From the human T2T-CHM13v2.0 reference genome, Homo sapiens: a DNA stretch of 64,000 nt. The position numbers and the translations under genes were made by a program. The notes beneath the pieces are model-generated. The model was given only the letters and a program-made list of their open reading frames with translations. It did no database searches and had not been told where the DNA came from. Positions within the stretch are counted from its first letter, which is position 1; each line of letters opens with the position of its first letter. The stretch lies in NCBI RefSeq assembly GCF_009914755.1, contig NC_060930.1. One strand, given 5' to 3'. Of the stretch, positions 1,876 to 44,225 are shown piece by piece.

Positions 1876-2404
1876 TGGACCAGTGAATGTCTGCCAAGAA
1901 GGACCTCCATCAGAAGGCCTCTAAGGACCCCTTGGGAACCTCAAACCAATGATTTACACCTCTTGCTGGGCAAGGGTGGCTGCCATACCTATCAGCCCTT
2001 TGATGACAGCTACCAACTGATCTCCTGACTAGGTGGGTGGCCTCCCTCCCTCATCATTCCAGGTACAGGCACATTCCTTTGAAGCTGCAAAAGAGTTTGA
2101 AGAATACAATCTTTCTCAGAGAAGACTGTTCTTCAACCAAGGATGTAGGCAAGGATGTAGAGTCATTGGTAAAGTGGACACATCCTACTAGGGGTTAGGA
2201 AACACTGTTTCTATCATCTTTCCTAACATAAAAATATGTGAACAACATAGAATCGAAAGACAAGAAATATTTATATTCTTCCTTCTTTCACTCAGTAAAT
2301 ATTTACTAAGCACTCACTATGTTCCAAACACTATTCTAGGTGCTGGGGATACAGCAGGGAACAAAACAAAGTCCCAGTCTTAGTGGGGTTCACGATCTCT
2401 AGGG

Positions 2405-2730
2405 CAGTAGTCCCCAACCTTTTTGGCACCTGGGACCAGTTTCAGGGAAGACAACTTTTCCATGAAAATTTTGGGGGAGGGGGGTTAAAGGATGAAACAG
2501 TTCCACTTCAAATCACAAGGCATTAGATTCTCATAAGGAGTGCGCAATGCAACCTAGATCCCTTGTATGAGCAGTTCACAATAGGGTTCAAACTCCTGTG
2601 AGAATCTGCTGCTGCTGCTGATCTGACAGGAGGCGGAGCTCTGGCAGTAATGATTGCATGCCCACCCGCCACTCACCTCCTGCTGTGCGGCCTGGTTCCT
2701 AACAGGCAACAGACAGGGGGCCTTTACTCT
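2405..2730. mobile_element. MER1B-like hAT MITE inserted in an L2 fragment (~2285-3400)
   Basis: cagtagtccccaacctttttggcacc...tgctgtgcggcctggttcctaacaggc. Confidence 0.7.
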
Positions 2731-3007
2731 AGGGGATGGAGATGGACAACAAACAAGTACATAATATGGCCTGTAGTGATAGCGCTTTAAAGAAAAATAG
2801 AGCCAGGCAATAAGACCAATGGGCATGGCTGCAGCAGATTAAGCAAGAAAGAAAGCATAATGAGATGAGACTGGAGAGGTGAGTGGAGCCAAGTCATGTA
2901 GGGTCTTTAAGGAGCTTGGATTTTATGCCAAGTACAATGGGGGCCATTGCAAAGTTTTCAGCAGAGGAGTGACATGATATCGTCTACATTTTAACAGGGT
3001 GTCTCTG

Positions 3008-3306
3008 GGCAGGGTGCGATGGCTCCCACCTGTAATACTAGCTCTCTGGGAGGCCAAAGGTGGTGGATTGCTTGAGTTTCAGGAGTATGGGACCAGCCTG
3101 GGCAACATGGTGAAACTTCATCTCTACAAAAATACAAAAAATTAGCTGGCCATGGTGGTATGTGCCTGTTAGTCCCAGCTACTCAGGAGGCTGATGTGGG
3201 AGGATTGCTTGAGCCCAGGAGATGGAGGTTGTAGTGTGCTGAGATCATGTCACTGGACTCCAGCTTGGGTGACAGGGCAAGACCTGGTCTCAAAAAAAAA
3301 AAAAAA
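3008..3306 (+). mobile_element. Alu
   Basis: Dimeric Alu with A-tail. Confidence 0.9.
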
Positions 3307-42052: not shown

Positions 42053-42668
42053 TGCCATCTAGGACTTTCATAGCTAGAGGGGAGTAGTCAATGTCTGGCT
42101 TCAAAGGACAGGCTGACACTCTTGTTAGGGGCTAAGGCAGCTGGTGACTTTAAGTTGAAGCCCGTGCTCATTTACCATTCCAAAAACCCTAGGGACCTTA
42201 AGAATTATGCAAAATATACTTTGCCTGTGCTTTATAAGTGGAACAACAAAGCTTAGATGACAGCACATCTGTTTATGGCATGATTTATTGAATATTTTGA
42301 GGCCACTGTTGAGACCTCTTGCTCACAAAAAAAGATTTCTTTTAAAATATCACTGTCCATTGACAATGAACCTAGACACCTGAGAGCTCTGATGGAAATG
42401 TACAAGGAGATTAATGTTTTCATACCTGCCAACACAGCGTCTGTTCTGCAGCCTGTGGATCAAGAAGTCATTTCAACTTATGAGTCTTATTATTTAAGAA
42501 ATATATTTAGTTATTTAGTAAAGCTATAGCTGACATACTTTCTTGAGATGGAATCTACTCCTGGTGAAGATGCTGTGAACATTTGAAATGACAGGAAAAG
42601 ATTTAGAATATTACATAAACTCAATTAGTAAAGCAGTGGCAGGATTTGAGAAGGTTGACTCCAATTTT

Positions 42669-42982
42669 TAAAAAAATTTTATTTATTTATTTATTTGGAG
42701 ACAGGGTCCCACTCTGTTGCCCAGGCTGGAGTGCAGTGGTGTAATCATAGCTCAAACTGTAACCTCAAACTCCTGGGCTCAAGTGATCCTACTGCCTCAG
42801 CCTTCTGAGTAGGTGGGACTACAGGTGTGCGCCACCATACCCAGCCAATTTTTTTATTTTTTATAGAGATGGGGTTTTCATTGTGTTGCCCAGGCTGGTC
42901 TTCAATTCCTGGCCTCAAGCAGTCCTTTTGCCTTGGCCTCCCAAAGTCCTGAGAGTATAGGCGTGAGCTACCACACCTGGCC
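42669..42982 (-). mobile_element. Alu (J-like) in Tigger1, adjoining the retrocopy
   Basis: Reverse Alu between ttgactccaatttt and ttgacttcatttt. Confidence 0.88.
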
Positions 42983-42999
42983 AGATTGACTTCATTTTT

Positions 43000-43315
43000 T
43001 AATTTTTTATTTTTTTCAGATAAATAGAAAGTCTGGTTTTATTTTAAGCTTTACATTTTTGTCAAGTGCAAGGTCAGCCAGCTAAGATTTCCAATAATTA
43101 CTGAAGTAATAACTTCTGCTGGCATGTCTTCTGAGTCTCCATTTCCTCCACTGATATTCATCCAAATAATAAGAGAAACACAATTGCAGTTGAGTTTACT
43201 ATTATCAATGGCACTGTCATCAAGGTTCTTACAGATCAAATAAGGTTCATTAGCTGAGATTTAATTCCTGGCTCCTCTCCAAATCCATCGATTCCCTGGT
43301 CTCTTCCCCAGCCAA
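43000..43315 (-). pseudogene. IER3IP1: Processed pseudogene of IER3IP1 (codon 31 to the stop, short 3'UTR, poly(A))
   Basis: Minus strand reads GWGRDQGIDGFGEEPGIKSQLMNLI*SVRTLMTVPLIIVNSTAIVFLLLFG*, compared with recalled IER3IP1 GWGTDQGIGGFGEEPGIKSQLMNLIRSVRTVMRVPLIIVNSIAIVLLLLFG. No intron; premature TGA 43238-43236; native stop 43160-43158; AATAAA 43043-43038; A-tail from 43016. Confidence 0.92.
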
Positions 43316-43400
43316 AGTTCCACATGGCTGGGGAGGCCTCACAATCATAGCAGAAGACAAATGAGGAGCAGAGTCATGTCTTACATGGTGGCAGGCAAGA
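43316..43400 (-). mobile_element. THE1 (MaLR, THE1D-like) LTR fragment forming the 5' exon of the retrocopy
   Basis: TCTTGCCTGCCACCATGTAAGAC...GAGGCCTCCCCAGCCATGTGGAACT matches the recalled THE1 LTR and stops where the consensus continues GT(A/G)AGT. Confidence 0.85.
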
Positions 43401-43681
43401 GACTAACTTCAATTTTGGAAGAAGTTCTACCGTGGGTAAAATGCTATCAAACAGAGTCACATGCTACAGAGAAATCTTTTGTGAAAGGAAAAATCAATCA
43501 ATGTGGCCAACTTCATTACTGTCTTGTTTAAGAAATTGTCACAGCCAGCCCAGCCTTTAGCAACCATCACCCTGGTCAGTCAGCAGCCATCAACATTGAG
43601 GCAAGATCCTCCACTAGCAAAAAGATTATGACTTGCTGAAGGCTCAGATGATTGTTAGCACTTTTTAACAATAAAATATTA

Positions 43682-44225
<544 letters not shown>

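What the first reader, a model, noticed from the sequence alone, without database searches (positions are those of the whole stretch)
43158..43325. The LTR exon supplies an in-frame ATG predicting a single-TM IER3IP1 isoform
Seen: the last LTR ATG (43325-43323, cagccATGt) reads ATG TGG AAC T|TT GGC TGG = MWNF-GWG, in frame with IER3IP1. Without the TGA at codon 57 (probably CGA>TGA CpG decay) the ORF gives 55 aa that keep only the C-terminal hydrophobic segment. Established: IER3IP1 (yeast Yos1) is a small two-hydrophobic-segment ER/Golgi trafficking protein mutated in microcephaly-epilepsy-diabetes syndrome. Inference: the parent chimeric mRNA could encode a truncated, tail-anchored-like variant. 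Upstream LTR ATGs (a GCCACCATG-TAA start-stop and an out-of-frame MIVRPPQPCGT ORF) could damp its translation. The retrocopy itself could only encode a 29-aa peptide.
Basis: partly seen in the sequence, partly recalled or inferred. Interest (0 to 1): 0.7.

Follow-up and report, generated by a model that had tools for sequence, protein, structure and literature searches.

The report
IER3IP1 pseudogene with LTR-derived first exon
This is a dead, reverse-transcribed copy of the IER3IP1 gene. It preserves an ancient transcript that started in a retroviral-like LTR instead of the gene's own first exon. The in-frame start codon is real, but it is a generic feature of that LTR family and is not evidence for a living short protein.

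Summary
On the minus strand, an ATG at 43325-43323 reads MWNF and continues in the IER3IP1 frame. A TGA at 43238-43236 sits where the parent gene has CGA. The natural stop is at 43160-43158.

The whole unit (43405-43017) is an L1-type processed pseudogene with these parts:
- a 90-nt THE1-type LTR exon that starts about 25-30 nt after the LTR TATA box and ends exactly at the LTR splice donor
- IER3IP1 exon 2, starting exactly at its acceptor
- exon 3 up to the proximal poly(A) site
- an A-tail and target-site duplications inside an older interspersed repeat, antisense in a TBC1D22B intron

The isoform inference is weak, for five reasons:
- The ATG-plus-donor stretch is shared by 6456 genomic sites, and its phase match is a one-in-three coincidence.
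- Three upstream ATGs precede it.
- No sense LTR of this type lies in intron 1 or within 223 kb upstream of IER3IP1 in this genome.
- IER3IP1 is absent from the one table I checked that lists overlapping gene names (human oocyte LTR transcripts) and from the readable supplements of three other papers.
- Disease variants in the missing first helix show that it matters.

Best reading: a fossil, tens of millions of years old, of an LTR-driven transcript. It is ordinary in kind and modest in interest.

The parts
43406..43416 (-). 5' target-site duplication (AAAATTGAAGT), the first of three copies of the same target
   Evidence: A paralogous uninterrupted copy of the host repeat (L008) has this stretch once, and the two flanks overlap there by 14 nt.
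43316..43405 (-). LTR-derived first exon (THE1-type MaLR LTR), from about the LTR transcription start to the LTR splice donor
   Evidence: 83 of 87 nt identical to each of three genomic LTRs of 355-365 bp. It starts about 25-30 nt after their TATAAA and ends at GGAACT, which GTGAGT follows in 2 of the 3 copies.
43381..43386 (-). Upstream ATG 1, directly followed by TAA (start-stop), context gccaccATGt
   Evidence: ATGTAA is present in 2 of the 3 LTR copies compared.
43345..43377 (-). Upstream ORF 2, 10 codons (MTLLLICLLL). Its TGA overlaps the next ATG.
43250..43348 (-). Upstream ORF 3, 32 aa, out of frame, running over the in-frame ATG
43236..43325 (-). In-frame ORF from the last LTR ATG: MWNF plus IER3IP1 residues 32-56, closed by the premature TGA (43238-43236; parent CGA, codon 57)
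43214..43315 (-). IER3IP1 exon 2 equivalent (102 nt, no gaps)
   Evidence: 91% identical to C18:47347745-47347846. The parent acceptor reads acag|TTGGCTGG.
43017..43213 (-). IER3IP1 exon 3 equivalent up to the proximal poly(A) site. Natural stop TGA at 43160-43158, AATAAA at 43043-43038, and deletions of 3 and 7 nt.
42999..43016 (-). Decayed poly(A) tail of the retrocopy
   Evidence: The parent has T-rich genomic sequence, not A's, after the same point.
42983..42998 (-). Second copy of the target sequence. It serves as the 3' duplication of the retrocopy and the 5' duplication of the Alu.
42672..42982 (-). Alu element with an A-rich tail, inserted at the same target site in the same orientation
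   Evidence: Reading it as an Alu, and of an old subfamily, rests on recall of Alu sequence and not on a tool.
42652..42668 (-). Third copy of the target sequence, after which the host repeat continues

Best explanation
The stretch 43405-43017 (minus strand) is a dead processed pseudogene of IER3IP1.

Inferred history: in a primate ancestor's germ line, a young THE1-type LTR lying upstream of IER3IP1 exon 2 fired from its own TATA-directed start. The transcript used the donor built into the LTR (GGAACT|GTGAGT), skipped exon 1 and spliced to exon 2. It ended at the proximal poly(A) site. L1 machinery then reverse-transcribed this mRNA into an A-rich target inside an older interspersed repeat, in what is now an intron of TBC1D22B, antisense to that gene.

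Shown here:
- intron loss
- exact donor and acceptor boundaries
- a start near the LTR transcription start
- the poly(A) tail and the target duplications
- a neutral-looking pattern of decay

The copy has since decayed: 21 substitutions in 296 aligned nt, two deletions and a CGA>TGA stop.

The in-frame ATG is a by-product. That ATG and donor belong to the LTR family's common sequence and give phase 1, and IER3IP1 intron 1 happens to be phase 1. Nothing found here indicates that the short protein is made today.

The source LTR is not at the parent locus in this genome. It may never have been fixed, may have been lost, or may lie more than 223 kb upstream (inferred).
For: Retrocopy:
- Exons 2 and 3 are joined without the intron, and 275 of 296 aligned nt match the parent (K2P 0.075).
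- An A-tail starts 21 nt after AATAAA, where the parent has no A-run.
- The target sequence is present three times here and once in a paralogous copy of the host repeat.
- Of the 51 codons for residues 32-82, 12 are changed: 5 synonymous and 7 not, one of them a stop.

LTR-initiated and spliced:
- The 5' 90 nt match three LTRs of 355-365 bp at 83 of 87 nt.
- They begin 25-30 nt after the TATAAA.
- They end at the base before GTGAGT.
- The IER3IP1 part begins at the first base after the parent's acag acceptor.
- Both parts lie inside one pair of target duplications.

Generic ATG: a 42-nt LTR stretch holding the ATG and the donor has 6456 matches with up to 3 mismatches, against 0 for the reversed control.

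No living source:
- Sense LTR hits in C18:47340001-47590000 comprise only two full-length LTRs, both of other subtypes (about 70-77% identity), and one LTR matched in two pieces at 47537312-47537732 that was not examined further.
- The other two IER3IP1 retrocopies, on contigs C12 and C2, carry the canonical exon 1.
- IER3IP1 has 0 occurrences in the supplements of the human oocyte LTR-transcript study, whose table lists overlapping gene names.
- It has 0 occurrences in the readable supplements of three further papers.

Background: THE1 LTRs do start transcripts in human oocytes, and some MaLR LTRs carry a consensus splice donor (passages of PMC6102241).
Against: - No source LTR was found, so the central step, cis-splicing from an LTR at the parent locus, rests on the junction alone.
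- Only 250 kb of the parent region could be read.
- No other primate genome was available, so loss or non-fixation of the LTR, and the age, are inferred.
- The last bases of parent exon 1 (GAACA) resemble the end of the LTR exon (GAACT). A reverse-transcriptase jump at that micro-homology followed by one A>T change would give the same sequence.
- The supplement searches cover few data sets, and one file could not be read. Absence there does not show that the isoform is absent.
Confidence: 0.82

Rival explanations
1. An LTR-to-exon-2 IER3IP1 mRNA is still made in humans, from an LTR beyond the region read or from a polymorphic one. It is translated from the last LTR ATG into a 55-aa protein that has only the C-terminal helix and behaves as a tail-anchored variant.
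For: - The frame is open and in phase.
- The hydrophobic stretch 61-82 ends at the C-terminus, as in tail-anchored proteins.
- A start-stop ATG-TAA can allow re-initiation downstream (general knowledge, not tested).
- THE1 LTRs start transcripts in human oocytes, and an intronic mouse MaLR LTR gives a truncated, active DICER isoform (passages of PMC6102241).
- Only 223 kb upstream of exon 1 was read.
Against: - No sense LTR of this type lies in intron 1 or in 223 kb upstream.
- Three upstream ATGs, each with a purine at -3, precede the ATG. One ORF overlaps it.
- The ATG itself has T at +4.
- IER3IP1 is absent from the human oocyte LTR-transcript table and from the readable supplements of three other papers.
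- No paper in the library pairs IER3IP1 with THE1 (0 papers), none holds the peptide string (0 papers), and the two papers each pairing it with LTR or with chimeric transcript looked unrelated by title and abstract start.
- Disease variants A18V and V21G lie in the first helix that the short form would lack (passages of PMC11335259).
Confidence: 0.07
2. The chimera was never a cis-spliced mRNA. Either the L1 reverse transcriptase jumped from canonical IER3IP1 mRNA onto a THE1 RNA at the shared GAAC, or an LTR transcript was trans-spliced to exon 2. In either case no LTR ever sat at the IER3IP1 locus.
For: - No source LTR is present at the parent locus.
- Parent exon 1 ends in AAGAACA and the LTR exon ends in GGAACT, a 4-nt micro-homology next to the junction.
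Against: - A jump at GAAC predicts A before TTGG. The copy has T, which is exactly what the LTR exon plus exon 2 gives.
- The junction falls on a splice donor on one side and a splice acceptor on the other, to the base. A jump would hit both only by coincidence.
- The 5' end sits at the LTR start site, as for a complete capped mRNA.
- Trans-splicing is rare in mammals (general knowledge).
Confidence: 0.06
3. The retrocopy itself is functional today, either as a transcribed 29-aa micropeptide gene or as a regulatory RNA within the TBC1D22B intron.
For: A 29-aa ORF exists.
Against: - The changes look neutral: 7 non-synonymous (one a stop) against 5 synonymous changed codons, plus two deletions in the 3' part.
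- The LTR promoter itself was not copied, only the transcribed part.
- The gene table supplied with the finding shows no annotated feature here.
Confidence: 0.02

Closest known systems
L1-mediated processed pseudogenes that preserve old transcript forms
   Same: Intronless, with a poly(A) tail at a real poly(A) site, target-site duplications and disabling mutations. It records an isoform (an alternative first exon) of the parent gene.
   Different: The recorded first exon comes from an LTR that is no longer at the parent locus within the 250 kb read. The two other IER3IP1 retrocopies carry the normal exon 1.
LTR-initiated chimeric transcripts of MaLR elements in oocytes (mouse MT, human THE1), for example the truncated DICER isoform driven by an intronic MTC LTR (PMC6102241, passages)
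   Same: It starts in a MaLR LTR, uses the donor built into the LTR, splices into an internal gene exon, and would give an N-terminally shortened protein.
   Different: Here only a DNA fossil exists. There is no promoter copy at the gene, no RNA or protein evidence, and the open frame needs an ATG that follows three others.
THE1B-CSF1R and other LTR promoter exaptations (PMC5134097, passages)
   Same: A THE1-type LTR supplies both the promoter and the splice donor to a host gene.
   Different: THE1B-CSF1R keeps the full coding sequence and is active in lymphoma. The IER3IP1 case skips the first coding exon and is not known to be active.
IER3IP1 / Yos1 family (Pfam PF08571)
   Same: The read-through translation matches profile positions 27-81 of 81 at E=1.4e-14.
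   Different: The first helix is missing, there is an internal stop, and six residues are changed. It is not an intact member.

Membership tests
Processed pseudogene (L1-type retrocopy) | Introns removed at the parent's exact exon borders | tested here: met
   Exon 2 (102 nt) abuts exon 3 with no intron. The parent has gtaag...acag between them.
Processed pseudogene (L1-type retrocopy) | Poly(A) tail at a polyadenylation site that is not templated in the parent genome | tested here: met
   An A-run starts at 43016, 21 nt after AATAAA. The parent continues with a T-run.
Processed pseudogene (L1-type retrocopy) | Target-site duplications flanking the insert | tested here: met
   An 11-nt duplication at 43416-43406 recurs at 42998-42989. 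The stretch is single in a paralogous repeat copy.
LTR-initiated chimeric transcript | The 5' end lies at the LTR's own transcription start, downstream of its TATA box | tested here: met
   LTR homology starts 25-30 nt after TATAAA in the aligned LTR copies.
LTR-initiated chimeric transcript | The junction joins an LTR splice donor to a gene splice acceptor | tested here: met
   GGAACT is followed by GTGAGT in 2 of the 3 LTR copies compared. The parent acceptor acag lies directly before TTGGCTGG.
LTR-initiated chimeric transcript | A sense-oriented source LTR upstream of the acceptor exon at the parent locus | tested here: not met
   None of this subtype lies in intron 1 or in 223 kb upstream. 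The only two full-length sense LTRs are of other subtypes, and one sense LTR matched in two pieces was not examined further. Beyond 250 kb was not read.
THE1 group of MaLR LTRs | LTR of about 350-380 bp with TG...CA ends, present in thousands of copies | tested here: met
   The matching LTRs are 355-365 bp and run from TGATAT to ATACA. There are 6456 matches to a 42-nt stretch.
THE1 group of MaLR LTRs | Assignment to a named subfamily by a repeat library (Dfam/RepeatMasker) | not testable with these tools
   No repeat library is on hand. THE1A is my recollection only. The THE1B-like look of the LTR at C18:47567373-47567741 is also recalled.
IER3IP1 / Yos1 (PF08571) | Match to the family profile above the curated cut-off | tested here: met
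   54.5 bits against a cut-off of 27, covering only profile positions 27-81 of 81.
IER3IP1 / Yos1 (PF08571) | Intact reading frame with both hydrophobic helices | tested here: not met
   The first helix is absent and there is an internal TGA at codon 57.
Tail-anchored membrane proteins (for the hypothetical 55-aa form) | A single hydrophobic helix at the extreme C-terminus and no N-terminal signal | tested here: met
   Kyte-Doolittle 17-residue windows above 1.6 occur only at 3-24 and 61-82 of the 82-aa parent. The short form keeps only the second.
Tail-anchored membrane proteins (for the hypothetical 55-aa form) | The protein exists and is inserted after translation | not testable with these tools
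   No expression data were available. This needs an experiment.

The most novel reading that the evidence does not exclude
A THE1-type LTR further than 223 kb upstream of IER3IP1, or one that is polymorphic in people, still drives an exon-1-skipping mRNA in human oocytes or early embryos. Re-initiation after the LTR's start-stop ATG-TAA lets ribosomes reach the last LTR ATG. The product would be a 55-aa tail-anchored IER3IP1 that lacks the helix hit by the A18V and V21G disease variants and could compete with the full protein in ER-to-Golgi traffic.
Probability: 0.07. Interest if true: 0.6.

Novelty: new member of a known kind. Interest (0 to 1): 0.22.

Why it matters
The practical value is small. 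It shows that this unannotated stretch of a TBC1D22B intron is an IER3IP1 pseudogene, which could confuse read mapping or variant calls for a disease gene.

Its modest scientific value is as a dated record. At about the time the THE1-type LTRs were spreading, one of them drove a germ-line IER3IP1 transcript, and that LTR is not at the locus now. Retrocopies of this kind can reveal LTR promoters that were transient or lost.

If the short isoform were alive, it would matter for IER3IP1 biology in microcephaly, epilepsy and neonatal diabetes. Nothing found here points that way.

Tried and rejected
Searches for the source LTR:
- I blasted the 105-nt LTR exon (word 7, E up to 10) and three full LTRs against C18:47340001-47590000. 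There were no sense hits in intron 1.
- The sense LTR at 47386218-47386598 was rejected as a different subtype: two insertions, CTG at the ATG place, and its other ATG out of phase.
- The sense LTR at 47567373-47567741 was rejected as a different subtype. Only 26 nt match the exon, and TT stands at the donor.
- A sense LTR matched in two pieces at 47537312-47537732 showed only a 3' end and a 5' end; no hit covered the exon region, and I did not look at it further.
- A full element with two LTRs at 47371531-47373813 is antisense.
- A genome-wide search for a 57-nt stretch of the LTR exon with up to 3 mismatches found only the copy itself and one LTR on C2. This was too strict to find a source that has drifted 12-15%.
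- Listing LTR copies on C18 by pattern failed, because only the first 100 of 6456 matches are shown.

Literature (search listings only unless stated):
- IER3IP1 + LTR: 2 papers, unrelated by title and abstract start.
- IER3IP1 + THE1: 0 papers.
- IER3IP1 + pseudogene: 8 papers, none on this by title.
- IER3IP1 + chimeric transcript: 2 papers, unrelated.
- The peptide string: 0 papers.

Other points:
- Order of the Alu and retrocopy insertions: I first read a shared A in two target copies as showing that the Alu came first. The paralogous repeat copy has the same A, so the order is left open.
- No structure or complex prediction was run, because the protein is hypothetical.

Full report
**What is in the sequence**

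- Read on the minus strand, 43405-43017 has four joined parts.
- The first 90 nt (43405-43316) match LTRs of 355-365 bp that begin TGATAT and end ATACA. Each of three copies taken from the genome search is identical at 83 of 87 positions.
- The next 102 nt (43315-43214) match IER3IP1 exon 2 on contig C18 at 91%. The following stretch (43213-43017) matches exon 3 at about 90%.
- After 43017 comes a decayed A-run.
The ATG at 43325-43323 gives MWNF and then the IER3IP1 residues, up to a TGA at 43238-43236, 29 aa in all. With TGA read as X, the frame runs on to the natural stop at 43160-43158.
- The read-through matches Pfam Yos1 (PF08571) at E=1.4e-14 over profile positions 27-81 of 81.

**The parent gene, checked in the same genome**

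- IER3IP1 lies on the minus strand of C18.
- Exon 1 ends ...AAGAACA followed by gtgagt. Exon 2 starts after acag with TTGGCTGG and ends before gtaag. Exon 3 starts after ttacag.
- Exon 1 carries 91 coding nt, so it ends in phase 1. The spliced frame gives 82 aa, with hydrophobic stretches at about 3-24 and 61-82.
- The LTR exon ends ATG TGG AAC T, also phase 1. The ATG is therefore in frame, and the hypothetical product is 4 + 51 = 55 aa with only the C-terminal helix.
- The parent codon 57 is CGA where the copy has TGA.

**Why it is a retrocopy of a spliced, LTR-started mRNA**

- The intron between exons 2 and 3 is gone.
- The A-run begins 21 nt after an AATAAA, at a place where the parent genome continues with T's.
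- The insert is flanked by a duplicated 11-nt target.
- The flanks belong to one older interspersed repeat. In a paralogous copy of that repeat (L008) the two flanks are contiguous and overlap by 14 nt at the target. I recall this repeat as Tigger1, but no tool named it.
- The LTR piece lies inside the duplications, so it was part of the inserted RNA.
- Its first matching base lies 25-30 nt after the LTR's TATAAA. Its last base is the one before GTGAGT in 2 of the 3 LTR copies compared.
- On the other side, the IER3IP1 part starts at the first base after the parent's acceptor.
- A start at the LTR's own start site, together with an exact donor-to-acceptor junction, is what an LTR-initiated, exon-1-skipping mRNA predicts.
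- Passages of PMC6102241 say that THE1 LTRs start transcripts in human oocytes and that some MaLR LTRs carry a consensus donor.

**Age and decay**

- Against parent exons 2 and 3 the copy has 275 of 296 aligned positions identical (12 transitions, 9 transversions, K2P 0.075) and two deletions.
- In the 51 codons for residues 32-82, 12 are changed: 5 synonymous and 7 not, one of them the stop. This looks neutral.
- The three LTR copies are 86-87% identical to each other, so each is about 7% from their common source. That is similar to the copy's own drift.
- In the 87 nt that align, the LTR exon differs from all three copies at only two positions.
- My inference is that the mRNA came from an LTR that was young at the time, tens of millions of years ago. 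The rate is assumed, and no other primate genome could be consulted.

- I read C18:47340001-47590000. This covers exons 3 and 2, the 18.6-kb intron 1, exon 1 and 223 kb upstream.
- Neither the LTR exon nor three full LTRs find a sense copy in intron 1.
- Upstream there are two full-length sense MaLR LTRs, both of other subtypes at about 70-77% identity. A third sense LTR, at 47537312-47537732, was matched only in two pieces (its 3' and 5' ends) and was not examined further.
  - The one at 47386218-47386598 has extra insertions, CTG at the place of the ATG, and another ATG out of phase.
  - The one at 47567373-47567741 matches only the last 26 nt of the exon and reads TT at the donor place.
- A complete element at 47371531-47373813 is antisense.
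- The other two IER3IP1 retrocopies, on C12 and C2, carry the normal exon 1.

**How much the in-frame ATG means**

- A 42-nt LTR stretch holding this ATG and the donor has 6456 genomic matches with up to 3 mismatches, against none for the reversed control. The ATG and its phase are therefore family features, and any phase-1 acceptor would be in frame. That is a one-in-three coincidence.
- Three ATGs lie upstream:
  - gccaccATGt, directly followed by TAA
  - a 32-aa ORF that overlaps the in-frame ATG
- All three have a purine at -3, while the in-frame ATG has T at +4.
- Re-initiation after the start-stop could let some ribosomes through, but that is speculation.
- The short form would lack the helix that carries the disease variants A18V and V21G (passages of PMC11335259).

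**Search for a living isoform in print**

- No paper in the library pairs IER3IP1 with THE1 (0 papers).
- Pairings with LTR (2 papers), chimeric transcript (2 papers) and pseudogene (8 papers) looked unrelated by title and abstract start.
- The peptide string occurs in no paper.
- IER3IP1 has 0 occurrences in the four spreadsheet supplements of PMC6102241. I saw part 1 of 10 of its human oocyte table, which lists overlapping gene names.
- It also has 0 occurrences in the readable supplements of PMC10616205, PMC12999487 and PMC6771403. One file of the last could not be read. I did not open these files to see what they list.
- These are few data sets, so absence from them is weak evidence.

**Rivals**

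- *Reverse-transcriptase jump.* A jump from canonical mRNA onto a THE1 RNA at the shared GAAC would need no LTR at the locus. However, it predicts A before TTGG where the copy has T, and it would have to hit a donor and an acceptor to the base by coincidence.
- *Trans-splicing.* It fits the junction but is rare in mammals.
- *Function of the copy itself.* Unlikely, given the neutral-looking decay and the lack of the LTR promoter in the copy.

**Verdict**

The thing is an ordinary kind of object: a processed pseudogene that preserves an LTR-started transcript. Its one mildly unusual point is that the source LTR is missing from the parent locus. The predicted single-helix IER3IP1 isoform is not supported as a living product.

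Noticed in passing
window 42652-43416: The same A-rich target in the host repeat was used twice, once by the IER3IP1 retrocopy and once by an Alu in the same orientation. This leaves three copies of the target sequence. The order of the two insertions could not be settled.
   Followed up: partly
L002 (G000:C12:111976073-111979304), match at about 1499-1901: A second IER3IP1 retrocopy on contig C12 carries the canonical exon 1. It extends about 900 nt further into the 3' UTR than the chr6 copy, so it used a distal poly(A) site. An Alu appears to be inserted in it.
   Followed up: partly
L004 (G000:C2:209325226-209328458), about 1410-1741 and 2307-3227: A third, much older IER3IP1 retrocopy (about 70-75% identity) on contig C2. 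It also has a recognisable but heavily decayed canonical exon 1.
   Followed up: partly
L012 1531-3813 (G000:C18:47371531-47373813): A complete MaLR element with two LTRs of about 353 bp lies 5-7 kb upstream of IER3IP1 exon 1, antisense to the gene.
   Followed up: no
L011 6484-6499 and window 43316-43321: The donor of IER3IP1 exon 1 (GAACA|GTGAGT) and the LTR donor (GAACT|GTGAGT) agree at 10 of 11 bases. This is probably coincidence, but it creates the micro-homology that keeps the template-switch rival alive.
   Followed up: partly
window 43690-44200 (minus strand): Upstream of the host repeat lie two Alu-like elements. Between them, a short block (gggtgacagagtgaga.cctgtctc plus a caatcaatcaa run) appears twice in tandem.
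   Followed up: no
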